Positions 6,038-47,465 of a stretch of DNA of 64,000 nt are shown here, piece after piece. The notes under the pieces are model-generated. The model searched no databases. It was given only the letters and a program-made list of their open reading frames with translations, and was not told the DNA's origin. Both the position numbers and the translations under genes were made by a program. The stretch comes from a virus (taxonomy: Duplodnaviria > Heunggongvirae > Uroviricota > Caudoviricetes): IMG/VR virus record IMGVR_UViG_3300033066_001079, positions 13,017-77,016 of that record; one strand, 5' to 3'. Position 1 is the first letter of the stretch. Each line of letters opens with the position of its first letter.

Positions 6038-6777
6038 AATGTATTCCTATGCGGGTAAGGGTTCTCGCCTTCTTTGCCCCACAAAAACGGTTCGTTCTTT
6101 AGCTCTCTCCAAACCTGTCCCTCATTTATGGACGGGTCGTTATATCCTTCAAGGCCCTTCTTGTACCTACTCTGATTCTTTATGTCTCTATCTCTGCCAG
6201 CTACTTCCTCGTCAATCTCTGACCACTCAAATACTCTTTCTTTCATTGGGAGATCTAGATTTGAGAAAGGCCCATGCACTCCCTTTGCTACCGTTTCAGG
6301 CTTTTTCCTTCTCAAAGCGTAGAACTGTACAAGCATAGAACGGATGTACAAGTTTCTCGATATGATATGGCCCACCCATTCAATAGCGAGTTTGTATTCG
6401 ATGACTTTGGACATGGTTTTATATGAAACACTCTTTGTGTCGCTGCATAGAGTGCGACAAAGAGCGGCGTCAACTCTCTCGAAATCGGATAGTCCGGGAT
6501 ACAAGGCTACCGCCCTCTTCAATCCCTGAACGGCATAAACAAAGATGTTCTCTATCCCCTCTGTTGGAGGGCTATTGCTTGGAACGGAAGATTCTAACGT
6601 GTCAGCCAAATCCGTCCAAAGCTTAGAAACAATGCCATAGGCATTCCTAGCCTTCTTCTTGAAGGCAGAAATCGCCGTCTGGATAGGCATTTTACCCATT
6701 CCTTCAACTTCTATGAAGCCTTGTGGCAAAACCTTGATACCATGAATAGAAAGCTCTTTTTCGAGGAGTTCAAGCAT
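6028..6777 (-). CDS. hypothetical protein
   Basis: 249-aa ORF with overlapping packing in the same operon. Confidence 0.5.
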   Translation of the reverse strand: MLELLEKELSIHGIKVLPQGFIEVEGMGKMPIQTAISAFKKKARNAYGIVSKLWTDLADTLESSVPSNSPPTEGIENIFVYAVQGLKRAVALYPGLSDFERVDAALCRTLCSDTKSVSYKTMSKVIEYKLAIEWVGHIISRNLYIRSMLVQFYALRRKKPETVAKGVHGPFSNLDLPMKERVFEWSEIDEEVAGRDRDIKNQSRYKKGLEGYNDPSINEGQVWRELKNEPFLWGKEGENPYPHRNTLWS

Positions 6778-7363
6778 CCTTGCCCTCCCTTGGCAAAACG
6801 CCTACAGTAATATGAAACTTGTGGTCCTTGATTGTAGGAGTCAAATCGTAATCTTCTCTAAGCTCAGATAGCTCAGGAGCATCTATATCAAGAACCCAAA
6901 CCTTTTCTATCTCCGGCCATCCGTCAGGGTCTTTTATCTCTTCTAGTCCCATTATCTTGTACGGAATAGTCTTACCGTCTTCTGCAAACTCAATATCATT
7001 CTCTTCTATCTCGTCCCTGCGAATTACTGTTACATGAGCGCCTATGTCATTTCTCTTATGCTTAGGCGGCTTTTGCGCATCAGGCAAAAGAGGCAGAAAC
7101 GCTTTCAACAAAGAATCGTCAACCTTGAGATAAACAAAACCGTCTTCCGTCTGCTTGAGGGTTCCCTCTAAAACAGTCAGAACGCTATCTCCTGCTATCT
7201 TCTTAAAAATGGAAGCAAGAGCCGCCTGAGAATAGTTTTTAGTCATATCCAAGGCATAGTCCCTAGGATAGAGGTTAGACCAGTAAGTTGTTAGCTTACG
7301 TTGGTCTTTCTTTTGCCTCTTCTTCCAGCTTGGAGGAACATGCTTAGATACGATTTGCTTCAT
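6770..7363 (-). CDS. putative 2H-phosphoesterase superfamily protein (LigT/Acb1-like)
   Basis: Two H-x-T-V motifs (GAHVTVIRR and FHITVGV) about 70 aa apart in the C-terminal half, which is the hallmark of 2H phosphoesterases. The N-terminal ~100 aa is an unassigned extension. Confidence 0.4.
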   Translation of the reverse strand: MKQIVSKHVPPSWKKRQKKDQRKLTTYWSNLYPRDYALDMTKNYSQAALASIFKKIAGDSVLTVLEGTLKQTEDGFVYLKVDDSLLKAFLPLLPDAQKPPKHKRNDIGAHVTVIRRDEIEENDIEFAEDGKTIPYKIMGLEEIKDPDGWPEIEKVWVLDIDAPELSELREDYDLTPTIKDHKFHITVGVLPREGKDA

Positions 7364-8043
7364 TTATTGTTTGCCCTATCCTGCACAGCCTTCTGGAACT
7401 TGATGATACGCTCCTTTGCTTGTTCGTGGTCAGCAAAGGCAATTCCTTGATTCTTCTCCGCTTCATACTCAGCCAATAGATCTCGCGGCTTTGTGTTTTT
7501 TATATCAGGGCGAGCGATATGAACTCCCTCAGGAGGATTGTTGAATCTCTCATTGAGGCTCATATCTTCTCGGTCTTTCTTTTGCGGCAAAGGCTCGACT
7601 TCTGACTTCTTTACAGTAGCCATGATAGTCTTCTCTCCCGCCTTGCGTATCTTCTTGGATTCTTTAGACGCCTTTACTTCTGCCGCAGGAGGAGCCGCCT
7701 CAATAGTAGCTTCTGGCGTATCAAGCGCTATGAGATTACACTTGATAGCTGTTTGAACTTCAACAGACATGGCATCCTTAGCGCTGACATAAAAAAGCTG
7801 CTGAGGAGCGCAAACAATAGAGCCAATGCTTACTTTGGTTCGAGAGATATTCTTGTACGCAATCAAATTGATTGACTTGAAATCTCCTATTGCTTCGATC
7901 ATCTTATTAGTAACGGCAAACTGAATGCCTCCGTCTACGCATTGCTCTTCGGTAAGAGAAAACTCTTCGCCCGCTCTATAAGAGCGGCCAAGAGCATTTA
8001 CAACAAACTTACCCTTCATCGTTGGCGCTACTTTGAAATTCAT
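7360..8043 (-). CDS. hypothetical protein
   Basis: 227-aa ORF with a lysine-rich C-terminal half. Confidence 0.5.
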   Translation of the reverse strand: MNFKVAPTMKGKFVVNALGRSYRAGEEFSLTEEQCVDGGIQFAVTNKMIEAIGDFKSINLIAYKNISRTKVSIGSIVCAPQQLFYVSAKDAMSVEVQTAIKCNLIALDTPEATIEAAPPAAEVKASKESKKIRKAGEKTIMATVKKSEVEPLPQKKDREDMSLNERFNNPPEGVHIARPDIKNTKPRDLLAEYEAEKNQGIAFADHEQAKERIIKFQKAVQDRANNK

Positions 8044-8054
8044 GGTTCTTCCTT

Positions 8055-8534
8055 TCAGATGTTTCTTAGTCTTTGCTTGAGGCCCTGAAGAACGCCATTC
8101 CCGTTATATGAATTAACGTTTGAAGGCGGTCTGTCCCTATGGTTATCGTCTAATTGCCTGCTAGTTGTTTGATTGATGCCAAGAGTTGCGTCCGAGCTAT
8201 CTCCCTCTCCAATTTCGCCGTCGTCATGAAGCTCCAAACCATGATCTGTAACTATGCCTCTTCCATTATCTCTTTTTGGTCTACCTTCTGAATCGTCAAG
8301 GATAGTGCTATCAGAAGGCCATGCAGGACCGTTCTCAAATTGAGAAGCGCCTCCGCCCGGAATCGAGTTGGAGGTTCCTTGATTTCCTGCTCGTAGCTTA
8401 TCAACCGTATCTTCGCTTCCGGGCTTGCCTTTATTCAAACGATAAGGATCTCGTCGTTCTGGACTAAAGACATCAAAAGCTGACGGCGGATCTCTGCGAG
8501 CAATCTTAGAGAGATTATATGGTTGGGGGCGCAC
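8055..8534 (-). CDS. hypothetical Gly/Ser/Asp-rich protein
   Basis: 159-aa ORF in the operon. Confidence 0.45.
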   Translation of the reverse strand: MRPQPYNLSKIARRDPPSAFDVFSPERRDPYRLNKGKPGSEDTVDKLRAGNQGTSNSIPGGGASQFENGPAWPSDSTILDDSEGRPKRDNGRGIVTDHGLELHDDGEIGEGDSSDATLGINQTTSRQLDDNHRDRPPSNVNSYNGNGVLQGLKQRLRNI

Positions 8535-9894
8535 TAGGGCCTCCGCCTAATGGCTTTGGCTGAGGAGCCGGAGCGGGCGCTGGCTGCTCAGGAGTATCTA
8601 GACTAAAGTAGTTAGAAGATTGCGCTCCCGGGGCGGGCGGCGGAGTTGCTGGCGCTGGAGGAGACGCCGCCGAAGGCGTTCCTTCGCTTGGCGGTTGCTC
8701 GCCTACTCCCGCTCCAAATGGGTCATGATTGAATGTTGGTTCAGCAAGAGTTGGCTGACCGTCAGCAGTATTGGTTGCGCTTGGCGCAGGAGGAATAGTG
8801 CTTCCCATCTCAGGGACATCACCCATTGGCTCTCCTGTATCCATTGAGATATCGCCCTCAGAAGTAGGAAGTTCGCCCATGCCCGGTGCTCCGCTTCCAT
8901 CGCCGCCCATTGGGTCTGTTCCCATTGGGTCTGCTCCCGTCATACCAGATGGGTCTGATTGCTCTGCTGCTCCTTCTAAAGCTGAAGGATCAAATCCTGA
9001 TTGCTCTGCCCAAAGCCTTTCGTCTCCGGCTGTTGGGTCGTTACCATTAAGGAAGTCGGTATCTCGATCTTCAGGCGGGATATTGCCTTCTTGAGGCGGA
9101 ATGGCAGAGGTCTGAGCAATCGTCAAAAGAAACGCTTGCTTGTCTTTGGTTATACCGTTGACAAGATCTGTCTCTTCTGCATTGAGCGCTCTATTTTCTT
9201 TTGCTGCCTGAAGATAGGTATGATAAAGAAGCTTGTCTGCGTCTCTCATAGAAGAAAGAGCCATCTTCAAGGCTTTCTCTCCGCCCTTGAATCCGTGCAT
9301 GGCATCAACTTCTACCTTCTTGCCAAAATTATCTCGATTCTTTTCCGCGCTAGAATGATGAGGAAGACCATCTAGATTGCCAAATCTATCTGGATTGGCC
9401 TGCAACTGACTTCCTCTTTGAGGAACGTTGTTTGGAACCTTGGTAATAGGACCGTCTAGTTGATCGCCAACATACTTATCCCAAAATGCTGTATCTGGAT
9501 CGTTATTAGCCTTAGCAAAAGCGTCTCTGTACTTGCGGTCAAAAGCCTCAGAAAGAGCAGCGGCAGGAGTTACTCCGCCCCTTGTTCCGTCTTCGTGCTG
9601 CCTATGAGGATATAGCTTAGAGTCAGCGTCTCCCAAAGCTCCCTCAATGGTCTTATCATTGTGAGCGGCCTTTTTACGATTCTCGTCTAGCATGGCCTCA
9701 TGCGTAACCGGATTATCAATAGGTCTACGGTCTTCTTCCAATATGCTGTTAAAGTTTGGCACATAGCTCTTATCGCTAAGAGATAGGTTGTACTTTTGAG
9801 CGTGTTGAGGAAGAACGACAGAATGCGGAGATACGCTATCTTTCGCCTTCTGAGATATTTTCTTAAGATTGAAAGCCATTACTATACTCCTCAC
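8515..9894 (-). CDS. hypothetical protein with Pro/Ala-rich N-terminal low-complexity region
   Basis: 459-aa ORF immediately downstream of the terminase. The first ~60 residues are rich in PAPA/PPAP. Confidence 0.55.
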   Translation of the reverse strand: MRSIVMAFNLKKISQKAKDSVSPHSVVLPQHAQKYNLSLSDKSYVPNFNSILEEDRRPIDNPVTHEAMLDENRKKAAHNDKTIEGALGDADSKLYPHRQHEDGTRGGVTPAAALSEAFDRKYRDAFAKANNDPDTAFWDKYVGDQLDGPITKVPNNVPQRGSQLQANPDRFGNLDGLPHHSSAEKNRDNFGKKVEVDAMHGFKGGEKALKMALSSMRDADKLLYHTYLQAAKENRALNAEETDLVNGITKDKQAFLLTIAQTSAIPPQEGNIPPEDRDTDFLNGNDPTAGDERLWAEQSGFDPSALEGAAEQSDPSGMTGADPMGTDPMGGDGSGAPGMGELPTSEGDISMDTGEPMGDVPEMGSTIPPAPSATNTADGQPTLAEPTFNHDPFGAGVGEQPPSEGTPSAASPPAPATPPPAPGAQSSNYFSLDTPEQPAPAPAPQPKPLGGGPSAPPTI

Positions 9895-12800
9895 CTACGT
9901 GGATATGCACTACTTCTTTGTTCGAGTTTTCTTGCAACTTGCCCTCCCGGGCCTTGTCCATATGGCATGCCCGACATGGACCTCCATACTACATCATTCA
10001 TGCCATTAGATACTGGCGAATTTACAAGTTTTCCTTCTACGTACTTGTTCTGACCCTTCTCAATACAGTTATAACAAGCTCCTGCCAAAGCATCGCACAA
10101 ATCGTCAGTTGTTACGTCCCCGTCCTTCTTGGCATATACCTTATAACCGTTGTCAAGCCATTTACGCTGAAGATTCTTCATTTCGTTTTTGAGCAATAGG
10201 TGATGAGGAATCAACAACTTTCTCTGTATGACAAGCTGATATAGGTTATCATAAATAAGCGTCTTGTACTGCTTGGTAAATGGGGTCATTCTTGTAGGAA
10301 TGCCTCTCTTACGTAGTTTTGCAATACTTGTCTGGCTATTGAAATGGTCATAAGTAACAATACCCATGTTGAACTTCGAATTCAAATCGGCAACATACTC
10401 GTCTACTTGCTCTACAGAAATCGGTCGTTCTGGGGCAGGCGACCAGTACATAATGTGATCTACTATGATTCTCCATTCCATCTTCTTGCTACCATCGTGG
10501 TCAAACCAATGTTCTTTATGAGCAAGTATAAGAGCATAGTTGTGGCTAGATGTCGCTGGATCCAAGTGGGCAAAATAAACTTGTCCTCGAACTCCAAATT
10601 TCAACAACTGCAAATCCTTCTCTCGGAAGCAAGCCTCGATATCTTCCTCACTAAAGAAGTTTTCGCCTGCCGTGCCAGAGAACTCCGCTCCAAACTCCAT
10701 GCGGAACTTTTCTTCTGGCATACTAGGGAACGCAGCCATAAGACCCTTCTTAGACTGCATAGGATTAACTTGCCATGTAGCCGCTCGACAAACCAAACGA
10801 TGGTCAACCTCCATGTGATTCTCGAAGAGGTTGTAGAAGATACCTTCCTTGCTTCTAGGAGTTGAAAGACAAATGATCTTACCATCATATATCTTGTCCA
10901 CCTCTTGAATGCCATCAGGTCCAAGAATAGGAAGTCCCATGCTATTTACTTTAGGAACTTGACGAACATATGTCTTTACAGCGGGAGCAAGAGAGTTGAA
11001 TATGGAGTCTCCGGAAGACGAGCCAGCAGTATTCTTGTACAAACCAATCTCGTCCAATAGCAATACATAGCACGAAATACCTACGAGCGTATCTGAGTTA
11101 CTATGCCCTGCTCTAACAACAACAGAACCAAGGCTAGGCTGGAAGCCTTGCTCTACAAGCTCTTTGTTTCTCTTTTTGTCCTCAGGAGTTAGGAAGTGGA
11201 TAGCGTCAGAAGTTACGCCTTCTGGAATAATCTTGTCTCTAAAGTATTCGCTACTTAGAACTTTTTCCTTAATCTGGCGGAAGAGAATCTTCGCCTGCTG
11301 CGCCGAGTTAGCGATGGTCAAAATGGTAAACGGATCAGCCATACCTAGGTTGTAGACAGCATAAGGATTTCCGCCGGGCGTTTCCAATAGCCTCATCGTT
11401 TCATATAGAGCAATGATAGAAGTAAGGAAGTCTTTTCCGCTGTTATGACAAATGAATCCATTGGATACGAAGTTCTGCAAATGCTTCTTGTCAGATACCT
11501 GAATATCATATGTTCGTTTCGTGCCTATTTTTCGCAACTGAGTAATAGGAACAAAAACAGGAGCATCAAGGTCGTTCTCTGATTCGACATTTAGATTTAC
11601 GTCTTGAACCGTGTCGTTCTGTCCAATAAAACCTATCTCGTTGATAAACCTTTTGACATGGCAGTTTTTAGTTACCGACAAGATATGCTCTGGTTTACCA
11701 TTCATGATCTTCGATTGGAACCCGGCAAAAATACCGAATCTTGAAAGAAGATGCTGAACCTGCTTGATAAGCGTTATACTGCTAAAGGAAGCTTCTATCT
11801 TAGAAGTATATCTCGAAGACTTCGACGCCGTAAGAGATCCGTCGCAGCTAAACAAGCATCTCAAGTAAGCCGCAACAACAGTCTTTGGTGCCAAGAAAAT
11901 CTTTGCTGGCACGAATTTTTGCATGCCCGTCTTGTTATGAAGTCCATTATTCTTGAGTATAGTAGCGACGTTTACTACGTTACTCTTTGTAGAAACAGCC
12001 TTAGTTGTAGCAACATATGAGTATTTTCTCTCGTCTATAGACTTCAGATTATAGTTGGTAGCTGCTTCAATCTTCAAGTCCGTGCTGGTAGACTTTAGCT
12101 TGTCCTTGAAGTTGTCAAAGACTTCGCCATCCTTCAAAGTAGTTGCTATATAAGCTCCAACGGAGTCGCAGCACTCGCTGCTTAAATATCCAAGAAGAGA
12201 AGCCTCGTCTTCGGTAATATCTGTTGAACTGCCAAAGAAGGGCTGACAAGCAGCAACGGCAATCTTATCTTTTGGCTTCAAAGACTTTAGCTCAACCCAT
12301 CCCTTATCTGTCAGCATAGGATGATTGTCTGTAACTTCAATTTCATGGCCTGTTGTAGTCTGTATTTGATAAACCTCTCTCACGCCCTGAAATATGAGAT
12401 TACAGTTGTTCATTACCGTCATGGTCTGAGCGGTTTCGTCGTATGTCCATGAATCTAGATTGAGTTTTCCGTAGTTCCAAAGCTCGCCTAAGGTCCAGTT
12501 GCGGCCAGTCTTTACGTCTACTATTTCACAACTCTCAGACAAACAACGTCGGCCCCAAACAAGAACAAGCTCTCTAAAATCATGCCCGGCTTCCCATTTG
12601 TCTATCAAAGCCCCATTCTCGGGAGCATTCAATCCATTCTCGTTTATGAGCAGCTTGTCTGCGTCTGTCAAAACAAGATTTTCATTTCCTTCGCTTCCTC
12701 TGTAAAAGCATTTTAGCGTTAGCTTTTGCAGAGGATAAGGATTGATAGGAGGGTTTAGGAAAGGAAGACCTAGATACTTTTTGTCGTCAATGAACTCGAT

Positions 12801-12920
12801 AATGCTTGGGATCTTAGTGTTATTAACTAGATCTGTTTGAATCTTCGCCCTAAGCTCTCTAAAGAGATCAAAGCTTTTTTCATTCGAGTTGGACTTTTTC
12901 TTTTGCTTGTCAGAAGCCAT
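9891..12920 (-). CDS. terL: terminase large subunit interrupted by an intein
   Basis: ATG start with GAGGT SD. The N-extein ends ...LVLVWGRR and the C-extein begins SGKDFL..., so the spliced product reads GRRSGKD, a Walker-A-like P-loop. The C-extein has a nuclease-like segment (YFAHLDPATSSHNYALILAHKEHW). The mature protein would be about 641 aa. Confidence 0.8.
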   Translation of the reverse strand: MASDKQKKKSNSNEKSFDLFRELRAKIQTDLVNNTKIPSIIEFIDDKKYLGLPFLNPPINPYPLQKLTLKCFYRGSEGNENLVLTDADKLLINENGLNAPENGALIDKWEAGHDFRELVLVWGRRCLSESCEIVDVKTGRNWTLGELWNYGKLNLDSWTYDETAQTMTVMNNCNLIFQGVREVYQIQTTTGHEIEVTDNHPMLTDKGWVELKSLKPKDKIAVAACQPFFGSSTDITEDEASLLGYLSSECCDSVGAYIATTLKDGEVFDNFKDKLKSTSTDLKIEAATNYNLKSIDERKYSYVATTKAVSTKSNVVNVATILKNNGLHNKTGMQKFVPAKIFLAPKTVVAAYLRCLFSCDGSLTASKSSRYTSKIEASFSSITLIKQVQHLLSRFGIFAGFQSKIMNGKPEHILSVTKNCHVKRFINEIGFIGQNDTVQDVNLNVESENDLDAPVFVPITQLRKIGTKRTYDIQVSDKKHLQNFVSNGFICHNSGKDFLTSIIALYETMRLLETPGGNPYAVYNLGMADPFTILTIANSAQQAKILFRQIKEKVLSSEYFRDKIIPEGVTSDAIHFLTPEDKKRNKELVEQGFQPSLGSVVVRAGHSNSDTLVGISCYVLLLDEIGLYKNTAGSSSGDSIFNSLAPAVKTYVRQVPKVNSMGLPILGPDGIQEVDKIYDGKIICLSTPRSKEGIFYNLFENHMEVDHRLVCRAATWQVNPMQSKKGLMAAFPSMPEEKFRMEFGAEFSGTAGENFFSEEDIEACFREKDLQLLKFGVRGQVYFAHLDPATSSHNYALILAHKEHWFDHDGSKKMEWRIIVDHIMYWSPAPERPISVEQVDEYVADLNSKFNMGIVTYDHFNSQTSIAKLRKRGIPTRMTPFTKQYKTLIYDNLYQLVIQRKLLIPHHLLLKNEMKNLQRKWLDNGYKVYAKKDGDVTTDDLCDALAGACYNCIEKGQNKYVEGKLVNSPVSNGMNDVVWRSMSGMPYGQGPGGQVARKLEQRSSAYPRR
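11442..12545 (-). mobile_element. intein with LAGLIDADG homing endonuclease inserted in the terL P-loop
   Basis: Residues 126-493 of the terL ORF. Block A is CLSESCEIVDV, block B is EVTDNHPML and the C-terminal block is NGFICHN followed by Ser+1. Two LAGLIDADG-like motifs are present (LLGYLSSECCDS and AAYLRCLFSCDGS). Confidence 0.75.
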
Positions 12921-12922
12921 AT

Positions 12923-13453
12923 TTACCTCAAGTCGGAGGCTACTTTATAAACTAACCAAGTAGAACCACCGTCAAATGTAATCAGTTTTAGAATATCAAA
13001 GGCTGACGCATTAGGAGAAAACGTAATAGGAGCATGCGTCGTTGTCTTGAAAGTTGCTGGGAATGTGATACCAAAGCCTCCGCTCGTTTGCTCGACAACA
13101 AGAGTAATTTCGAATCCGCTATCGTCGGCAATGTCGCTCAAAATGGAAAGTATTACGTTTCCAGTGAGCGTAATCTTTTGCAGATTACCGCCCGCAGTTG
13201 AGATCTGATAGGTTCCGGTTTTATTACCAATGATGTTGGTATTGATTTGATAGGAATGAAGAACAACGTCTGAAAATACGCCGTCGCCAGCGTCAACTTC
13301 AATTTGATTTTGCGAGATTCTGATAGGCAAAGCTAAACCATTACCGCTGTACAAAGTACGCAGAGTTAGGTCAACGCCATTGTTCTCTGCATTTAGAAAG
13401 AACAAATCATTGTGAAGTTGGGCCGGTTCTTTATCGCCTATTCTTGTACTCAT
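12923..13453 (-). CDS. hypothetical protein
   Basis: 176-aa ORF upstream of terL. Confidence 0.5.
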   Translation of the reverse strand: MSTRIGDKEPAQLHNDLFFLNAENNGVDLTLRTLYSGNGLALPIRISQNQIEVDAGDGVFSDVVLHSYQINTNIIGNKTGTYQISTAGGNLQKITLTGNVILSILSDIADDSGFEITLVVEQTSGGFGITFPATFKTTTHAPITFSPNASAFDILKLITFDGGSTWLVYKVASDLR

Positions 13454-13466
13454 TTTTCAATCATCC

Positions 13467-13952
13467 TTATACGTTCTTCCATCCTATCTTTTCAAATGGC
13501 AAATGGATATCTTTCATGAGAAGATGAATGTCCTTCATTCTGGCTCTAGAATCGCCTATCACTGTTATCGTATATCCAGCCTGTTCGGAAAGAATGGCAT
13601 AAGTAAGAGGAACTTCTAAAAACTGTCCCCGCAAGAAGTCGTCCATATCCTCATATCCATAGAGCGAACCGTATTTATCCAATACATGATCATTAAGAGC
13701 GCGAATGGCAGAATACGTAGTCTGTTGATTGTCCAAATGACTAAAGACTATGTGAGCATATGTATCTCTAAGAAAACCCTCTAACTCAGTTCTATGGCGC
13801 TGCTGCGGGTTTACCGCCGTAGACTGAAGAGTATTGAATACGCAAATAAGCGGGCCTAAAGCCTGTTGTCCCAAGTCGTATGATTCCGAGATCGCTTCTG
13901 CGGCGATGCGATAATCATATGTTCCAATTCTATGTCCAAAGTCTATTGCCAT
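13467..13952 (-). CDS. hypothetical protein
   Basis: 161-aa ORF. Confidence 0.5.
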   Translation of the reverse strand: MAIDFGHRIGTYDYRIAAEAISESYDLGQQALGPLICVFNTLQSTAVNPQQRHRTELEGFLRDTYAHIVFSHLDNQQTTYSAIRALNDHVLDKYGSLYGYEDMDDFLRGQFLEVPLTYAILSEQAGYTITVIGDSRARMKDIHLLMKDIHLPFEKIGWKNV

Positions 13953-15967
13953 TAGCGGAATATGATCCTACGAAAATATCTCCATTCAAACTCTTCTAGA
14001 TCGTCTTTCTGTCTGATTCTAAACCAATAAAACTCGCCTCTTGTCAACAACTCTGAGGATTGACTTGTATATTTGATTCTTCTTCCCTCATAATTGCTTG
14101 TTATGCCATTTCCGTTCATTGGTTTGAAATCGCCGTTATAGTCCTCAAAAGTCCAATTTGTAACATCCTCAAATGTATCTTTCGAAAAGATTATAGCATT
14201 TTCCTCGAAATCTTCCAGTTGTCTTGCAACTTCAATCTCAATATGATAGAACCTAAAATCGCCGGGATAATGTTCTAGAGGAGCCTCAAAAGACCAAGAT
14301 CCTCTAGTCTCGATGTTCGTAGAAACAATCGAATCTGAAAAGGCCTGATTCTGCAAACCGTCAAGAAGTATCTGCGAGATCTTAGTATTCGTATAGGTAA
14401 GATACTGATTCAAGTTTGGATAGAAAAATGGCAAAGACGTAGAGTTTTTATCTACTACAAAACCAATCAGCTTATTAATGACATTGACATAATCATTCTT
14501 CCATGAAGTTTCGTCAAATAGCTTGTACAGTCTGTTCATTGGAGCATTAAGCTCAAGCTGAACGGTAGGCTCCATTCCAGCCGCAATCCTATCTCTGGCT
14601 CTCTTGAGAATAGTTGCTTTTCTCTCCAAGCATATTGCAGATTGCGCCAGACAAGTTTCCATTAGTTTCCAACCCTTAATCGGGTCCAACAATTCTGTAT
14701 TATCAAATGGAACTGGAAATGAGAAAACAGTAAGAGGATCTCCATAACAAGCCATGCTTGAGTCTAGCAAAGGCTGAGAGTACATAAAGGCCTCTCCAAG
14801 AGTTGCTCCCCTAAATAGAGTGTCCATAAAAGGAACTGGCCTTAAGAAGCCATTCGCATTCGTGCCAGACATTGCCCCAGCCGTAGCTACGTACCCCTGT
14901 CTAACTGCAAGTATGGGCCACGAACGAGCGTCTAGGCTTCTCATGCTTATACCGCCGTCAAAATCGGCATTATAGAAAAACGCTCTCGTGCTTGTAGATG
15001 TCTTGAAATACGAAAGAGAACCCCTGTCCGCTCCCCATCCCCAAAAGAATGAGTCGTCTTCAATTTGGGGCAAGAAAGCGTCCTTGCCAGCAGGAGGTTG
15101 ATTCGTTTTTGCAATTGCCAATCCAAGCCTAGAGAAATAGTTGTCATAGAAGTCTAGCAACGCCAAAGTATAATCTGAAGACCCCGAATAGGTATAGGCT
15201 GAATAAGGGTCAAGACAGAACTTGCCGTCTACCAAAACTCTAGCTTTAGCAGCTTCAATATTGTCAAACCATGTCTTTGTTACAGTGTTGGGGCCGTCTA
15301 TTCTCGTACAAATAAGGCCGTGTAGAGCATACTCGCCTGTAAACCTATTGAATATTTGCTTGTTGTAAATTGGATTGACAACGTTTTTGTTGAACGTATA
15401 GAAAATTCTAGACAGACGAGACGTACTTGATATAACATCAGATCCGTCTCGGAATCCGCCCGGAACGAATGGCATCAATACCATAGCGTATACGGTTCTT
15501 TCGCTTACTGGCGAAGTTGACAGAGACGTTCGTAGCGGTATCTCTACTTGATCTTGAAACTCGATATAGTCAGAAAGTATTTCTACGTTAGAACATGGAA
15601 TGGCTATTAACTGGTCGTCGTCCAATCCATGAAGAGCTTGATATCTCAAAGCATAACCATAACTATCTGAGTCGTTCTCTCGATAAACGCACACGACGTT
15701 ATCTTTGGTAAAGACAGCGGTTGGATTAGGAAGAACCTGAGCAACAGGACCAAGTACCGAAAAGAAAACGCAAGTAGTGGCGCTAGGAGAAGACTTGTTT
15801 CCATAGATGTCAACCGCAACTATATAATAGCAGTAAGTATCTCCAATGATAGTTGAGGTGTCATCAAAATTTGAAGTTACAGACGTGCCAATAAGCGAGA
15901 ATGGTCCCGTAGGATTATTCGTAGAACGATATATCTCGTAATATGCAAAATCCGATGGGGTGGGCAT
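13952..15967 (-). CDS. tail fibre-like structural protein starting with a partial FN3 domain
   Basis: 671 aa. The N-terminus PTPSDFAYYEIYRS...YCYYIVAVDIYGNKSSPS is the C-terminal two-thirds of a fibronectin type III domain. It has its own SD (TTAGGAGAAC) 9 nt upstream of the ATG. Confidence 0.55.
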   Translation of the reverse strand: MPTPSDFAYYEIYRSTNNPTGPFSLIGTSVTSNFDDTSTIIGDTYCYYIVAVDIYGNKSSPSATTCVFFSVLGPVAQVLPNPTAVFTKDNVVCVYRENDSDSYGYALRYQALHGLDDDQLIAIPCSNVEILSDYIEFQDQVEIPLRTSLSTSPVSERTVYAMVLMPFVPGGFRDGSDVISSTSRLSRIFYTFNKNVVNPIYNKQIFNRFTGEYALHGLICTRIDGPNTVTKTWFDNIEAAKARVLVDGKFCLDPYSAYTYSGSSDYTLALLDFYDNYFSRLGLAIAKTNQPPAGKDAFLPQIEDDSFFWGWGADRGSLSYFKTSTSTRAFFYNADFDGGISMRSLDARSWPILAVRQGYVATAGAMSGTNANGFLRPVPFMDTLFRGATLGEAFMYSQPLLDSSMACYGDPLTVFSFPVPFDNTELLDPIKGWKLMETCLAQSAICLERKATILKRARDRIAAGMEPTVQLELNAPMNRLYKLFDETSWKNDYVNVINKLIGFVVDKNSTSLPFFYPNLNQYLTYTNTKISQILLDGLQNQAFSDSIVSTNIETRGSWSFEAPLEHYPGDFRFYHIEIEVARQLEDFEENAIIFSKDTFEDVTNWTFEDYNGDFKPMNGNGITSNYEGRRIKYTSQSSELLTRGEFYWFRIRQKDDLEEFEWRYFRRIIFR

Positions 15968-15983
15968 TAGTATGTTCTCCTAA

Positions 15984-18900
15984 TTAATTCCATGCTATCC
16001 TTATTCTTCCATGACTAATATCCGCCGACGCTGATACGTTTGTAGGAGCATTCAATATTGGATCGTCTGCAATATATTTGACAGAGAAAGACGCAGGAGA
16101 CGAGGCGTTTCCATAAACATCATAAGCTATAATCTTGTAGTAATATGTCTTCTCTGAAAACACTTGATTATCTACAAATGACGAAGACTTGAGGTACGCC
16201 TTAGCATGATATGGCTTTGTAAGATCTGCTATTCCGTTTACGATTCTTGCCCTATATACTATGTAATGACTAAAATCTGGCTCCGTATTCTGCCTCCATG
16301 TTATAGCGATGCACTGTCTTCGCATCTGATAAGTAGCATTAACAAGAGCGTCAGAAATAGAAGTCATGATATTAGAAGGCGTTGCAAGCAGTTGATATTC
16401 GCTTGGCTTAGTATCATACACAAACCTTCTGTCTGCTGCCAAAAAGAGATCTGTTTCTGTCGAGATGTTTGCGGGATGATTGTTGTCATCTAGGAACGGT
16501 CCAGTGCAATATCCCCATGAAGCAAGAGAGGCCATCTGATTCTTTATCATTGGGCCGCTTACTGAACTGCCAAGCGTATTTGCAATATTTGTCACGTAGA
16601 CCCATGCAACTTGTTCGCTTCCGGGAGTAATATACTCGGCCAAAATATGAGGGCCTGTTATAGGGCCGCTAGAGTCATATGAAGACAAAAAGCTCATAGA
16701 ACCCAAAGAGGTAACGTCATTGGGCGACGGATTCACCATTAGTTTCAAATGAGGATGCAGTGACTTGACAAGGGCTATATATGCTTGCGATTGAGACAAA
16801 TCTTCGAATCCGTCAAAATATGAATCTAGACCAAGAATATTGCTTTTGATGTAATAGCTCATTAGGTCTAGTTCGCTTTTGGCATACTGAAGAGTCGTAC
16901 TATTGGACATATCTGCAATCCTAGCTAGGTCGGTATATGCAGGATTCCATTTTGGACTCACAACGCTTGCGTGTCCTTGATAAAAACCAAAGACTGGGAT
17001 TTCTTGGATAGCGTCTCTCAACAAGAACAAAGAACCTTTGAGTAACGAAGGAGCAACAGTAAACGATCCGCCAATACATGTGTCGCCAACTTTGGTAAGA
17101 CACGAATCTGTATAAGGACCAGCAGAAGACTGAGGATAGCTATTGGTTGTGTCAAAAAGAGGCGCAAGAGTTGAGAACGGATAGTTCCAGACGTTTCTGT
17201 TCCAATACAAGCCAGAGGGAGAAAACATAAACTGTCGCTCATACCCTAGGTTCTTGTAGTTATTCTTGATATTATTAGCCCACCATGCCCATCCGTGTAC
17301 GGCTGGATTGGTGTTAGCTGGATCGTAGGAACTCTGATAGTAAAGAGGCTGTCCATTAGACGCTACCGCTGTTATTGCTGGCCATACTGGGCGAGGGTCT
17401 TTCATATAGGTAACAGCCCCAAAAGTCTGAGCAAAATATGATTTGTAAGGAGAAAGAGTTGTTACCCAGCTTTTTGGATTCCTAGAGAATCGGACAGACA
17501 CTTTGACCGTATAGCTCTCCCCATACGCCAGACAGTCTTTATTGACGTAGTTGAGCGAATCTGCTTGCGTTTCCCCATACCAACCAAAAACAACGTTTGA
17601 AGCATATCCGGTGTCGCCAATTGCTGTTGTTGATACCGAAGTCAGTCGCTTGTCTTGAACAAAGTTCTGCTGCATGCAGATACCGACAGCATGCGTCTCA
17701 TTGAATAGGTTATGAGTAGGGCTGAACTTCTGAAACGGATAGGTTGCAGGAGTCCCATCATATGATCCAAGAATAGTTCTTCGTTCGAATGCGGTAGAGG
17801 CGTTAGTATTGTCTACTTCCGCGAAAATTCTACCCATATACAATCCGTCAAAAGATAGGCTTCCCATTCTTTGCGCAATATCGCCCTGATTCTGTACTGA
17901 TGGACCGTCATTGGTATAGACTATGGTAAGATCATATCCTGTAGAAACAGTAGACACAGAGACAGACGTATGTATCCAGTTTCCAAGAGTAACCGAGTTT
18001 TCTTGAAGATAGCAAACACCCCATCTGTTATATCCGTCTTCTAGAGATTCTGTATTGCGCAGATCGCTTGTTGGAACTTCGTCTGTTCCCAACACTTGAG
18101 CCGTAACTCCAACGCCGTCTAGAGCTATACCAATAGCCTGAACAAGCTCTTTGACTAACGAATAATCTGCTATGGCTATTTCAGCTAAAGTGTGCGGTAT
18201 GTTGTCTTTATCAATGAATCTTGCAACAAACGTGTCTACAGAGCTTACAGTCATTATTCCGAACGAAGCCGCTATGTATGCAGAGTTTTCGTCTCCGGTG
18301 TATTTGATTCTAAAAGCTCTTGACGCATTTAGATTTGCGTCTGTTGTTGTAAACTTAAGGATGTCGCTTACTGTGCTGTTTATCTGTTTTATGAGAGGCT
18401 TGGTCACAGAAGATCCAGAAGAATCTAGAGTTGTAGAGTCTGGATCTACTACTTGCACAAATGCATTTTGACAGCTTGACATAGCCGACCTAGTTCTTGT
18501 TTTTATGGTTGTCGTAGAAGTAAAGCCAGAAGAACTAAGCGAAGGAGCTACATAGATAGGGATTGCCGCGCCAACAACTCTGCTAGCGAACACGTTCTTA
18601 GGGGAATCATTGTAGTCCCTAGCGGAAGCAGGGTTCTCTGTCGCCTGCAAGAACAGCGGGAGATATGACGGATATGAGAGCTTGTATCTAAAGAAACTTG
18701 GAAGCTCCGTAACTGCTACGTTCATCTGTGTGGCGTCTGTCTCTTTTGATGACTTCCACTGGCTCCATGTCTTTGTTGCGCCATCCGCTATTGCGAACTC
18801 CATATCTGACCTACGCGAAGGCCAAATATTCGCTTTCAATGCAGAAAACTGATTAAGTTTGTCTATTGCAATCCATCTAGATACGCAGTAAGAAGAGTTC

Positions 18901-21963: not shown

Positions 21964-22512
21964 TCAATTCCCGCTTGAACCAAAGCCTCCGGTTCCTCTG
22001 CTGGAATCCGCAAGCTCTTGGACTTCCCAAAACTTACCCTCTTCTGTTCGGATAATAACAAGTTGGGCTATCTTGTCACCCTTCTTGTATGTTTTTATGT
22101 CTGGCGGAATAGGACGGTGAGCAAAAACTTGACCTGTTTCTTTGTTATGATAGAAATGATCAACAGGCTTAAACCTGACAAGAAGCTCGCCTCGATACCC
22201 ATTGTCCACAAGTCCAATGCTATTAGCTAGAACTAAATCGTACTTACTTATGCTTGAACGGGGCCAAATCTGAGTATGAAAACCTTCAGAAGGTTCTATA
22301 GCCAAGCCTGTACGATACTGCATATATCCGTCATCAGATACAGTACCATTGTCAATGGCTACCAAATCATATCCTGCATCTCCCTCTTTAGCTCTTGCCG
22401 GGAGAACTGCGTCTGGGTGTAGTTTTTGAACTTTTATCTTGCACTTCTTAAAGACTTCTAACGCTACCGGATCTGCCATGTTCTTCATTCGTCTTCCTTT
22501 CTTTATCCACAC
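21964..22512 (-). CDS. dut: dUTP diphosphatase (dUTPase)
   Basis: Motifs DAGYDL, PRSS and GLVDNGYRGEL are present. The true start is probably an internal ATG at 22488 or 22479, with AAAGGAAGA upstream. Confidence 0.85.
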   Translation of the reverse strand: MWIKKGRRMKNMADPVALEVFKKCKIKVQKLHPDAVLPARAKEGDAGYDLVAIDNGTVSDDGYMQYRTGLAIEPSEGFHTQIWPRSSISKYDLVLANSIGLVDNGYRGELLVRFKPVDHFYHNKETGQVFAHRPIPPDIKTYKKGDKIAQLVIIRTEEGKFWEVQELADSSRGTGGFGSSGN

Positions 22513-46502: not shown

Positions 46503-47465
46503 TTACACTTTGTAGTTGGTGAAGTTCAGCGGTTCGTCAAGATTCTCATTGTAGAAAACCCAGCCAACAAACTGCGATCCTTCATAATCATGAATAACAA
46601 CCATCAGTCGGTCGCAAGCGAATAGAATCTCAGGAACGGTCTTGCCGTTTACGCAAGCTTTATCCACTTCGGACGCCATCACTCCGTTGATGATTGCGTC
46701 ATAGGAAAGGTCAGATTCACTCCAACCAGACTCTATGGCTCGATTGCGTTCTCTCTTGTAGTCGTCTATCGTGACAAATGTTTTCTGCATCATTGGGAGT
46801 GCGAAATGAGCACCTGAACGAAGCAAAATCGGCTTGCTGCGGACTTTATTGGTAATTTTGCAGCGCATGTTTGCGTAAACCATGCGATGAGTGTTGGCAA
46901 TCGTCTCGTAACCCTTGAGTTTTTCAGACGGCTCAATCAGGCAATCGTCTTCCAGCAACCTGATCTGAACCTTGAGGCCGCTAATCTGACGAGGAGTAAG
47001 AGCAGCTATCCTGTTTTCCAAAGTATCGGGAAGATTTTTGAAAATACGCATACCTCGACCGTCCTTGTTCTCGAATTTGTTGAAGTATTCAAGATCCACC
47101 TGCGTCTTGAACTTCTTCTTTATACTCTTGGTAAAACGCTGGGCACTCTCCTTTGTAGGGAACTCGTAGTCGCATCGTGAGGGTTCCCAATCAGAAAAAG
47201 TTCCACCACATTTTTGGGCCTCTACCTGAAGCTTATCAAAAGTAGGGCCGAGACTGCTACCTTCTCCATGCAGGATTTCCGCCATCGTGTCTGGGCAGTC
47301 ATCCGTGAGGAGAACTCGAACAATATGTATCTCTTGAATCATGCGCAGCAATGCCTCTGTTTGTTGCATCAAACATCGGAATACCGCCGCTCGACTGCAA
47401 ATCTTGCACCCAGCGCTAGTTACACTTCTTTTGACACTTGGGCCTATTTGACTTGGCGATACCAA
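46503..47465 (-). CDS. hypothetical protein
   Basis: 320-aa ORF. Confidence 0.5.
   Translation of the reverse strand: MVSPSQIGPSVKRSVTSAGCKICSRAAVFRCLMQQTEALLRMIQEIHIVRVLLTDDCPDTMAEILHGEGSSLGPTFDKLQVEAQKCGGTFSDWEPSRCDYEFPTKESAQRFTKSIKKKFKTQVDLEYFNKFENKDGRGMRIFKNLPDTLENRIAALTPRQISGLKVQIRLLEDDCLIEPSEKLKGYETIANTHRMVYANMRCKITNKVRSKPILLRSGAHFALPMMQKTFVTIDDYKRERNRAIESGWSESDLSYDAIINGVMASEVDKACVNGKTVPEILFACDRLMVVIHDYEGSQFVGWVFYNENLDEPLNFTNYKV

What the first reader, a model, noticed from the sequence alone, without database searches (positions are those of the whole stretch)
11442..12545. Intein with LAGLIDADG homing endonuclease splitting the terminase P-loop
The TerL ORF is 1009 aa. A 368-aa insertion starts with Cys (CLSESCEIVDV) and ends ...NGFICHN followed by Ser. 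Removing it restores GRR-SGKD, a Walker-A-like loop. Inside are two LAGLIDADG-type motifs. This is a mobile selfish element sitting at the ATP-binding site of an essential packaging enzyme.
Basis: partly seen in the sequence, partly recalled or inferred. Interest (0 to 1): 0.6.

Follow-up and report, generated by a model that had tools for sequence, protein, structure and literature searches.

The report
Intein splitting phage terminase ATP loop
The DNA-packaging enzyme gene of this uncultured large phage is interrupted, in the middle of its ATP-binding loop, by a 368-residue self-splicing protein insert (an intein) that carries a homing-endonuclease domain; this is a real example of a kind of element already described in phage terminases.

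Summary
ORF 9891..12920 (minus strand, 1009 aa) is a terminase large subunit (TerL). Residues 126-493 (window 11442..12545) form a class 1 intein with a nested LAGLIDADG domain.

- **Profile and fold evidence:** Pfam Intein_splicing and LAGLIDADG_3 both score above their cut-offs. The AlphaFold model (pLDDT 92) matches the TliVMA, PI-PfuI and PI-SceI inteins.
- **Splice site:** Removing the insert in silico gives a 72.6 kDa protein. Its GRR|SGKD loop is contiguous in at least 80 intein-less homologues, and its model matches the HK97, T4 and Sf6 TerL structures.

The "mobile selfish element" reading needs qualifying.

- **Fixation:** Every sampled member of the window's TerL clade carries the intein.
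- **Vertical descent:** The intein and host-protein trees largely agree.
- **Active site:** The first LAGLIDADG catalytic position is acidic in only 5 of 29 related inteins. The window's Glu124 is one of those exceptions.
- **Selection:** The endonuclease domain is nevertheless under purifying selection (dN/dS 0.05-0.11).

It looks like an old, fixed intein late in the homing cycle.

P-loop inteins in TerL are already published for mycobacteriophages, so this is a new member of a known kind, at a different bond of the loop (R|SGK instead of GK|T).

In passing, two related contigs carry two different inteins in tandem at this same bond.

The parts
9891..12920 (-). TerL precursor ORF: 1009 aa plus stop, 113.6 kDa
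   Evidence: ORF list. PHROG terminase large subunit hits. The exact protein also occurs on independent contigs of SRR32380195.
12546..12920 (-). N-extein, residues 1-125, ending in strand LVLVW and the first half of Walker A (GRR, 12546..12554)
   Evidence: G123, R124 and R125 are invariant in 53 homologues. The model shows strand 117-122 followed by a loop.
11442..12545 (-). Intein, precursor residues 126-493, 368 aa, 41.0 kDa, class 1 (Cys1 ... His-Asn)
   Evidence: Pfam PF14890 54.2 bits and PF14528 51.9 bits. TIGR01445 and TIGR01443 hits. AF2 pLDDT 92.2, pTM 0.91. Foldseek top hits are TliVMA, PhoVMA, PI-PfuI and PI-SceI.
12531..12545 (-). Block A (CLSES) with the Cys1 nucleophile
   Evidence: C1 is invariant in 26-31 related inteins.
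12321..12350 (-). Block B (GHEIEVTDNH) with the TxxH motif (T72, H75)
   Evidence: T72 is invariant and H75 is conserved in at least 90% of sequences.
11574..12230 (-). Nested LAGLIDADG endonuclease domain, about intein residues 106-324
   Evidence: PF14528 hit at intein 223-305. The region is absent from the 150-aa mini-inteins P0109 and P0119 at the same site. The fold matches bifunctional inteins, I-OnuI-type meganucleases and the bI3 maturase.
12171..12197 (-). Block C, first LAGLIDADG motif, degenerate (LLGYLSSEC). Glu124 sits at the catalytic position and Cys replaces the usual Gly.
   Evidence: Helix 112-122 in the model. The catalytic position is acidic in only 5 of 29 related full-length inteins.
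11907..11918 (-). Block D (KFVP) with Lys210
   Evidence: K210 and P213 are conserved in at least 90% of sequences. That this is block D is my own knowledge of the KxIP motif.
11838..11864 (-). Block E, second LAGLIDADG motif (LRCLFSCDG), with Asp235 and Gly236
   Evidence: Helix 221-235 ends at D235. This position is acidic in 23 of 29 related inteins.
11439..11513 (-). Blocks F and G (TYDIQVSDKKHLQNFVSNG / FICHN) plus the +1 Ser of the C-extein
   Evidence: D347, N358, F359 and N368 are invariant and H367 is conserved in at least 90%. TIGR01443 intein C-terminal hit.
9894..11441 (-). C-extein, residues 494-1009. It holds the second half of Walker A (SGKD, 11430..11441), Walker B with the catalytic Glu (VLLLDE, 11049..11066), and the RNase H-like nuclease domain (HLDPA at 10554..10568, TTDDLCDALAG at 10080..10112).
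   Evidence: K128, D255, E256, D419, D571, D572 and D575 (spliced numbering) are invariant. Foldseek matches TerL ATPase and nuclease structures. hhalign against Mic1 TerL lines up Walker A, Walker B and the nuclease motif.

Best explanation
The gene encodes the large terminase (TerL) of an uncultured large tailed phage as a 113.6 kDa precursor. Its Walker A loop, G-R-R|S-G-K-D, is interrupted by a 368-residue class 1 intein.

Inferred mechanism, from the textbook class 1 pathway:
1. Cys126 undergoes an N-to-S acyl shift at the Arg125-Cys126 bond.
2. The hydroxyl of Ser494 attacks the thioester, forming a branched intermediate.
3. Asn493, helped by His492, cyclises and releases the intein.
4. 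An O-to-N shift makes the Arg125-Ser peptide bond.

The products are a 72.6 kDa TerL with an intact P-loop and a free 41 kDa intein. Until splicing occurs, the strand-loop-helix that binds ATP is physically separated, so the precursor should be inactive in packaging.

The intein carries a nested two-motif LAGLIDADG domain that originally drove homing into empty GRR|SGKD alleles. In the lineage of this window the intein is old, fixed and mostly vertically inherited, and the endonuclease active site is eroding. The domain is still kept as a folded scaffold, probably because the splicing domain depends on it.

Shown here: sequence, fold, exact site, distribution and selection pattern. Inferred: splicing chemistry, inactivity of the precursor and the current state of the nuclease.
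For: - **Intein and LAGLIDADG profiles** score above their curated cut-offs, and there are intein N- and C-terminal TIGRFAM hits.
- **Catalytic residues:** Cys1, T72xxH75, H367-N368 and Ser+1 are present and conserved in 26-31 related inteins.
- **Intein fold:** the AF2 model has pLDDT 92 and its top Foldseek hits are HEN-containing inteins (TliVMA E 1.5e-20, PI-PfuI, PI-SceI).
- **Host protein after splicing:**
  - The PHROG TerL match becomes one continuous stretch, residues 109-625, E 2.9e-29.
  - The model shows strand 117-122, loop RRSGK and helix 128-144.
  - The model matches HK97, T4 gp17, Sf6, D6E and P74-26 TerL.
- **Intein-less alleles:**
  - Intein-less homologues carry contiguous GRRSGKD.
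  - G123, R124, R125, K128 and D255-E256 are invariant.
  - hhalign puts GRRSGKD over Mic1 TerL SRRYGKS.
- **Fixation:** all 16 protein clusters and all 13 IMG/VR loci at 64% or higher identity to the window carry the intein. Elsewhere in the family it is sporadic, in at least 19 of 80 loci.
- **Vertical descent:**
  - HINT-domain and extein distances correlate (Spearman 0.76).
  - No pair has an intein much closer than its extein; the lowest intein/extein distance ratio is 0.80.
  - The intein's GC and GC3 equal those of the extein.
- **Active-site erosion:** the block C catalytic position is acidic in 5 of 29 relatives, and block E in 23 of 29.
- **Selection on the endonuclease domain:** dN/dS is 0.05-0.11, against 0.02-0.04 for the extein. 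This was measured in unsaturated pairs whose block C catalytic residue is Gly.
- **Literature:**
  - TerL P-loop inteins splice and some have active HENs (PMC5050341).
  - The homing cycle and HEN-HINT mutualism are described in PMC8966425.
Against: - No experiment: splicing, precursor inactivity and nuclease state are all inferred.
- The window's own intein does have an acidic residue at both canonical LAGLIDADG positions (E124, D235) and the block D lysine, so its nuclease could still be active.
- An Asp three residues downstream (D127) is invariant within the window's clade and might be a shifted catalytic residue.
- Strong purifying selection on the endonuclease domain is also what an active or otherwise functional domain would show.
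- The trees are neighbour-joining on corrected p-distances without support values, and dS is saturated for most pairs.
Confidence: 0.9

Rival explanations
1. The intein is currently an active, homing selfish element. On this view its LAGLIDADG enzyme cuts empty GRR|SGKD alleles of co-infecting relatives and copies itself in.
For: E124, D235 and K210 are all present in the window's copy. The endonuclease domain is full length and under purifying selection. The family as a whole shows a sporadic presence/absence pattern, with closely related intein-plus and intein-less pairs such as P0054 and P0041, whose exteins are 85% identical at the nucleotide level and whose flanks are nearly identical. 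Related TerL inteins have experimentally active HENs (PMC5050341).
Against: No empty allele was found among 16 protein clusters and 13 loci of the window's clade, so there are no visible targets. The Glu124 position is S, G, N, A, C, T, H or Q in 24 of 29 relatives, so it is not under selection. The motif lacks the usual Gly after the acidic residue. Six relatives have also lost the block E acid. Intein and extein trees are largely congruent.
Confidence: 0.3
2. The intein has been domesticated. On this view it is kept because splicing acts as a post-translational switch that times or conditions TerL activation (conditional protein splicing), or because the nuclease-dead LAGLIDADG domain has gained another DNA-binding role.
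For: The intein is fixed in a whole clade. The endonuclease domain is under purifying selection (dN/dS 0.05-0.11) in copies that lack a canonical block C acid. The insertion sits at the catalytic P-loop, where the literature argues for selective retention (PMC4760082). Cysteines lie near both junctions (C1, C6, C366), as in redox-sensitive inteins; that last comparison is my own knowledge.
Against: A constraint from folding and splicing competence of an insert inside an essential protein explains the same selection pattern without any new function (HEN-HINT mutualism, PMC8966425). Most of the TerL family works without the intein. Nothing here tests regulation.
Confidence: 0.12
3. The insert does not splice. 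On this view it is a permanent inserted domain, a dead intein in a pseudogene, or a misread group I intron or free-standing endonuclease gene, or an assembly chimera.
For: No experimental proof of splicing exists for this protein.
Against: The reading frame is continuous through both junctions, and every splicing residue is conserved across relatives down to 29% intein identity. The extein is under strong purifying selection, dN/dS 0.02-0.04, so it is not a pseudogene. A P-loop split by 368 residues cannot bind ATP. There is no Rfam hit, hence no group I intron, in 8000..16000. The exact protein recurs on independent contigs, and homologous inteins occur at the same bond on more than 30 contigs.
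Confidence: 0.02

Closest known systems
Mycobacteriophage TerL1-a and TerL1-b inteins (Kelley, Lennon, Belfort and Novikova, mBio 2016, PMC5050341)
   Same: Inteins inserted in the Walker A P-loop of a phage terminase large subunit. Some carry homing endonucleases. Their distribution among related phages is sporadic. Splicing is required to form the active site. For those inteins, splicing and HEN cleavage were shown experimentally.
   Different: There the insertion is at GK|T (site a) or one residue away (site b). Here it is R|SGK, three residues upstream of site a. In this TerL family the residue after Lys is Asp, so no nucleophile is available at the classic position. The host TerL family also differs: Pfam MJ0330_N type, about 25% identical to the nearest cultured-phage TerL. 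So this is not an allele of TerL1-a or TerL1-b.
Microcystis phage Mic1 TerL with two inteins (PMC7156551)
   Same: A distantly related TerL (hhalign E 0.003) that carries a large HEN-containing intein in the ATPase domain and a second intein in the nuclease domain.
   Different: Mic1's P-loop (SRRYGKS) is intact. Its inteins sit at LLTG|TPKG and at DHL|CDAL. The second of these sites is used in the window's family by P0042 (DDL|CDALAG), but it is empty in the window.
VMA inteins TliVMA (active HEN) and PhoVMA (degenerate HEN), plus PI-PfuI and PI-SceI
   Same: These are the best structural matches to the model (TM about 0.6). They share the HINT domain with a nested double-LAGLIDADG domain. 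The Tli/Pho pair is the published example of active and eroded endonucleases at one site within the homing cycle.
   Different: Different hosts (archaeal and yeast V-ATPase, RNR). Sequence identity is 10-19%. The window's intein has no extra DNA-recognition or accessory domain detectable by length (368 aa, against 430-540).
P-loop inteins of cellular ATPases (DnaB-b, MCM-a, RFC-a; Novikova et al., MBE 2016, PMC4760082)
   Same: The Walker A loop of an essential DNA-handling ATPase is a recurrent intein target. The best NCBIfam hit of the window's intein is the intein part of an intein-containing replicative DNA helicase model (E 7e-42).
   Different: Different host proteins. Whether any of them uses the bond before the residue preceding GK was not checked here.

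Membership tests
Class 1 intein (HINT splicing domain) | Profile match to the intein splicing domain above the curated threshold | tested here: met
   PF14890 scores 54.2 bits (cut-off 35.8). TIGR01445 scores 25.6 (24.5) and TIGR01443 scores 22.1 (15.6) on the excised insert.
Class 1 intein (HINT splicing domain) | Cys, Ser or Thr as first residue (block A) | tested here: met
   Cys126 of the precursor. It is invariant in relatives.
Class 1 intein (HINT splicing domain) | Block B TxxH | tested here: met
   T72-D-N-H75. T72 is invariant.
Class 1 intein (HINT splicing domain) | C-terminal His-Asn (block G) followed by Ser, Thr or Cys at +1 | tested here: met
   ...FICH367N368 | S494. N368 is invariant. 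The +1 residue is Ser in 30 of the 31 related inteins aligned and Cys in one, P0039.
Class 1 intein (HINT splicing domain) | HINT fold | tested here: met
   The AF2 model (pLDDT 92) superposes on the Mtu RecA, Ssp DnaB and Npu DnaB mini-inteins at 1.3-2 A over about 97 residues, and on full bifunctional inteins.
Class 1 intein (HINT splicing domain) | In-frame insertion at a conserved host site, absent from homologues, whose removal restores the host motif | tested here: met
   GRR|SGKD is contiguous in about 85 of 120 protein clusters and in 57 of 80 IMG/VR loci.
Class 1 intein (HINT splicing domain) | Autocatalytic protein splicing | not testable with these tools
   Needs expression of the precursor or a reporter fusion.
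LAGLIDADG homing endonuclease (double-motif, monomeric) | Profile match and two-fold pseudo-symmetric alpha-beta-beta-alpha-beta-beta-alpha fold with two LAGLIDADG helices | tested here: met
   PF14528 scores 51.9 bits (cut-off 22.5). Helices 112-122 and 221-235 are each followed by strands. Foldseek hits include the HEN domains of inteins, I-OnuI-type enzymes and I-Tsp061I.
LAGLIDADG homing endonuclease (double-motif, monomeric) | Conserved acidic residue at the end of each LAGLIDADG helix (metal ligands) | tested here: inconclusive
   The window has E124 and D235. However, the block C position is acidic in only 5 of 29 relatives and is followed by Cys instead of Gly. Block E is acidic in 23 of 29.
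LAGLIDADG homing endonuclease (double-motif, monomeric) | Site-specific cleavage of the empty allele and homing | not testable with these tools
   Indirect evidence is against recent homing in this clade: the intein is fixed and the trees are congruent.
Terminase large subunit (TerL) | N-terminal ASCE ATPase with Walker A, and Walker B with a catalytic Glu | tested here: met
   After in-silico splicing: GRRSGKD in a strand-loop-helix, and VLLLDE with invariant D255 and E256. hhalign to Mic1 TerL aligns both motifs.
Terminase large subunit (TerL) | C-terminal RNase H-like nuclease with conserved acidic residues | tested here: met
   D419, D571, D572 and D575 are invariant. Foldseek hits include the G20c, P74-26 and RB49 nuclease domains and RuvC.
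Terminase large subunit (TerL) | Family profile match | tested here: met
   PHROG phrog_2, terminase large subunit, E 2.9e-29 over residues 109-625. Pfam TerL_ATPase reaches only 14.9 bits against a cut-off of 23.7. Whole-protein fold match to HK97 TerL, E 4.9e-18.
TerL1-a / TerL1-b intein alleles of mycobacteriophages | Insertion between the invariant Lys and the following Thr of Walker A, or one residue away, in a Terminase_1 family TerL | tested here: not met
   Here the insertion is between Arg125 and Ser126, with Lys at 128 (spliced numbering). The residue after Lys is Asp. The host is a different TerL family. Site definitions are from PMC5050341.

The most novel reading that the evidence does not exclude
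In this clade of large phages the P-loop intein may no longer be a free-riding parasite. It could be a fixed module whose nuclease-dead LAGLIDADG scaffold is kept by selection and whose splicing gates terminase activation. The same bond is also a contested site, re-invaded by a second intein lineage with a canonical endonuclease. That produces natural tandem inteins (L099, and L010/L098), an arrangement for which I found no precedent in a limited phrase search of the paper library.
Probability: 0.12. Interest if true: 0.55.

Novelty: new member of a known kind. Interest (0 to 1): 0.25.

Why it matters
For annotation, the true terminase is the 641-residue spliced product. The 1009-aa ORF fails the Pfam terminase models and was labelled only 'intein/homing endonuclease' by JGI, so phylogenies or packaging-type predictions made from the raw ORF would be distorted.

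Biologically it adds a large, uncultured-phage TerL family to the list of terminases with P-loop inteins. Relatives lie on contigs up to about 550 kb. The family offers intein-less alleles, a mini-intein, a full intein with an eroding nuclease and a full intein with a canonical nuclease, all at one bond. That set is a convenient natural series for studying the homing cycle.

It does not change any current concept. P-loop inteins in phage terminases, their splicing and their homing are already documented.

Tried and rejected
**Searches that found nothing**
- Megablast of the gene against 50,697 phage records gave no match. The closest cultured-phage TerLs are about 25% identical.
- A profile search of the extein alignment against PDB sequences gave no hit at E 0.01 or below. 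Fold comparison was needed instead.
- Searching the 5.8-billion-protein index with the intein alone returned only two short fragments and nothing useful on other host proteins.
- Rfam on 8000..16000 gave no family, so a group I intron was rejected.
- The promoter and terminator scan of 9000..14000 gave counts equal to shuffled expectation, so there is no sign of separate expression of the endonuclease.

**Ideas tested and dropped**
- Opposite-strand ORFs inside the intein (11751..12020 and 12499..12705, plus strand) are mechanical and unsupported.
- A compositional anomaly of the insert was rejected: GC is 0.414 against 0.432 and GC3 is 0.446 against 0.437.
- Recent horizontal transfer of the intein between distant TerL lineages was looked for and not found.
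- The idea that Mic1's ATPase-domain intein is at the same site was rejected after reading the sequence.

**Technical failures**
Full report
**1. The observation**

The window holds a 1009-aa ORF on the minus strand at 9891..12920. The string CLSESCEIVDV...NGFICHN is residues 126-493 of it, 368 aa. It maps exactly to 11442..12545 (-). It is preceded by ...RELVLVWGRR and followed by SGKDFLTS.

**2. The insert is an intein**

Profile evidence:
- The excised insert matches Pfam Intein_splicing (54.2 bits, cut-off 35.8) and LAGLIDADG_3 (51.9 bits, cut-off 22.5).
- It matches the TIGRFAM intein N- and C-terminal models and the intein portions of many intein-containing NCBIfam models. The best of these is a replicative DNA helicase model, E 7e-42.
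- By sequence it also finds solved mini-inteins (DnaX, DnaB) and VMA inteins.

Conserved blocks, from an alignment of 31 homologous inteins at the same site:
- Block A: Cys1.
- Block B: T72-x-x-H75.
- Block F: D347, N358, F359.
- Block G: H367-N368.
- The +1 residue is Ser in 30 of the 31 (Cys in P0039).

Fold evidence:
- An AlphaFold2 model built on 26 of these sequences has pLDDT 92.2 and pTM 0.91.
- Its best PDB matches are endonuclease-containing inteins: TliVMA (E 1.5e-20), PhoVMA, PI-PfuI, PI-TkoII and PI-SceI.
- The splicing half superposes on the RecA and DnaB mini-inteins at 1.3-2 A.

Cys1 together with TxxH, HN and Ser+1 makes it a standard class 1 intein.

**3. The host protein is TerL and the site is the P-loop**

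- With the intein in place, only fragments of PHROG terminase families match.
- After in-silico splicing, phrog_2 (terminase large subunit) matches in one stretch, residues 109-625, E 2.9e-29. Pfam TerL_ATPase stays below threshold.
- A model of the spliced protein (pLDDT 86.4) shows strand 117-122 (LVLVWG), loop RRSGK and helix 128-144. This is the Walker A topology.
- The model matches the HK97, T4 gp17, Sf6 gp2, D6E and P74-26 terminases, and the G20c and RB49 nuclease domains.
- In 53 homologues G123, R124, R125, K128, D255 and E256 (Walker B and the catalytic Glu) are invariant, as are the nuclease acids D419, D571, D572 and D575.
- hhalign against the spliced TerL of Microcystis phage Mic1 places GRRSGKD over SRRYGKS and LLLDE over AGLDE.

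The intein therefore sits between the third and fourth residues of the P-loop, G-R-R|S-G-K-D.

**4. Comparison with intein-less alleles**

- A search with the spliced protein found 448 relatives. Among the top 120 clusters, 31 have an intein at this bond and about 85 have the contiguous motif GRRSGKD.
- In IMG/VR, the best 80 loci include 57 intein-less alleles, 18 with a single intein and one with two inteins at this bond.
- A sister pair, P0041 (empty) and P0054 (occupied), has exteins 85% identical at the nucleotide level and nearly identical flanks.
- The exact window protein occurs on other contigs, so an assembly artefact is excluded.

**5. Is it still mobile?**

- **Fixation.** On a neighbour-joining tree of exteins, the window lies in a clade (P0001-P0016) in which every member has the intein. 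All 13 IMG/VR loci at 73% or higher identity also have it. Elsewhere the intein is scattered among empty alleles.
- **Vertical descent.** Splicing-domain and extein distances correlate (Spearman 0.76). No pair has an intein markedly closer than its extein; the lowest intein/extein distance ratio is 0.80. Base composition of the intein equals that of the extein. Together these point to old residence, vertical descent and repeated loss, not recent transfer.
- **Active-site erosion.**
  - Only three of the 29 related full-length inteins (P0054, P0060, P0099) have the canonical first LAGLIDADG motif (GY.xGDG). So do loci L079-81 and the second intein (I2) of the tandem pair described in section 8. 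L096 has a near-canonical variant, GYMTADG.
  - In the other 26 the motif reads LGY.SS-x. Position x is S, G, N, A, C, T, H or Q in 24 of them, E in P0001 (as in the window) and D in P0005.
  - The second motif keeps its acid in 23 of 29.
  - The window's copy does have E124, D235 and the block D lysine K210. But E124 lies at a position that is evidently not under selection, and it is followed by Cys instead of Gly.
- **Selection on the domain.**
  - The endonuclease domain is not decaying freely. In the four mutually close relatives where dS is unsaturated (L001, L002, L003, L009), the block C position is Gly.
  - There, dN/dS is 0.05-0.11 for the endonuclease domain, 0.03-0.07 for the splicing domain and 0.02-0.04 for the extein.
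  - The simplest reading is the published HEN-HINT mutualism. The domain must keep folding for the essential host protein to be made, even after nuclease activity is lost (PMC8966425).
  - An active nuclease using a shifted acid remains possible: D127 is invariant in the clade. So does a new function.

**6. Mechanism**

The precursor cannot form the ATP site, because the strand and the helix that flank the P-loop are separated by a 41 kDa domain. Class 1 splicing proceeds by these steps: Cys126 thioester, attack by Ser494, Asn493 cyclisation, and acyl shift. It joins Arg125 to Ser and restores GRRSGKD. These steps are inferred from conserved residues and established intein chemistry. They were not shown here.

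**7. What is known**

- Inteins in the Walker A loop of phage terminases were described in mycobacteriophages (TerL1-a at GK|T and TerL1-b one residue away). Splicing and endonuclease activity were shown experimentally for several of those TerL inteins, TerL1-b among them (PMC5050341).
- P-loops of DnaB, MCM and RFC are classic intein sites (PMC4760082).
- Mic1 TerL has two inteins, but elsewhere in the protein.
- JGI already labels this protein cluster 'intein/homing endonuclease'.
- The new points are the host TerL family, which is uncultured, sits on contigs up to about 550 kb and is about 25% identical to cultured-phage TerLs, and the exact bond, R|SGK.
- The classic bond is unavailable here because Asp follows the Lys.

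Verdict: a new member of a known kind.

**8. Seen in passing**

The most unusual thing is in relatives, not in the window.

- L099 (IMGVR_UViG_3300033067_002502) has an intact 1424-aa TerL ORF with two different inteins back to back at this one bond: GRR|I1|I2|SGKD.
- I1 (368 aa) is 61% identical to the window's intein. I2 (396 aa) belongs to the canonical-endonuclease lineage and is only 32.5% identical to I1.
- A second contig, L010/L098, has the same arrangement but is blurred by homopolymer-type frameshifts.
- A phrase search of the paper library found no description of tandem inteins. That search is limited and does not show absence from the literature.

**9. Surroundings**

- There is no Rfam family in 8000..16000.
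- Promoter- and terminator-like sites occur at chance level.
- Neighbouring genes are phage structural or unknown. The window also encodes a ribonucleotide reductase, an SNF2 helicase and AAA ATPases, none with an intein.

Noticed in passing
L099 5793-10067 (I1 6228-7331, I2 7332-8519); also L010 about 6260-8530, same contig as L098: Two diverged inteins lie in tandem at the very same P-loop bond of a TerL 71% identical to the window's: GRR|C..ICHN|C..IVSN|SGKD. I1 is of the window's type with a degenerate nuclease motif. I2 has canonical GDG and CDG motifs. The ORF is intact in L099. In L010 it is broken by homopolymer-type frameshifts. This suggests a second intein lineage can invade alleles already occupied in a clade with no empty sites. 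I found no precedent by phrase search.
   Followed up: partly
Protein P0042 (1040 aa, homologue of the window TerL); compare window 10080-10112: P0042 has an intact P-loop but a 397-aa LAGLIDADG intein in the nuclease domain at DDL|C...HN|CDALAG. By hhalign this is the same position as the second intein of Microcystis phage Mic1 TerL (DHL|C...SN|CDAL). It is a second recurrent TerL intein site, and it is empty in the window.
   Followed up: partly
Proteins P0109 and P0119 (773 aa): These carry 150-aa mini-inteins with no endonuclease domain at the same GRR|SGKD bond, nested among intein-less relatives. The family therefore shows empty sites, full inteins with canonical nuclease motifs, full inteins with eroded motifs, and mini-inteins.
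   Followed up: partly
window 11430-11441 (SGKD) and homologues: The Walker A of this TerL family has Asp where P-loop NTPases normally have Ser or Thr after the Lys (GKD, conserved in at least 90% of 53 sequences; a few have N, G, S or T). This is unusual for a Walker A, by my own knowledge, and it removes the classic GK|T intein insertion point.
   Followed up: no
Loci L018-L097, insertion-site codons: The +1 Ser codon is AGC in 16 of 18 intein-containing alleles, against 14 of 50 Ser-bearing empty alleles; this is not corrected for phylogeny. Seven of 57 empty alleles have Ala or Gly at +1 (GRRAGKD, GRRASKD, GRRGGKD) and so lack a nucleophile, which would make invasion lethal.
   Followed up: partly
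window 8515-9894 (-), 13952-15967 (-), 15984-21833 (-): Three neighbouring ORFs lack annotation. The ORF directly downstream of terL (459 aa, with a Pro/Ala/Gly-rich tail) and the 671-aa ORF upstream gave no PHROG hit; the 459-aa ORF also gave no Pfam hit. The 1949-aa ORF further upstream was not searched. A homologue of the 459-aa ORF follows terL in L099 and L010 as well.
   Followed up: no
whole window; loci L001, L008, L011, L026, L060: Close relatives of this TerL lie on IMG/VR contigs of 333-548 kb, so the window probably comes from a huge (jumbo or mega) phage. The window also encodes a class I/II-type ribonucleotide reductase (22503-25025), an SNF2-family helicase (47444-50641) and two AAA ATPases, none interrupted by inteins.
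   Followed up: partly
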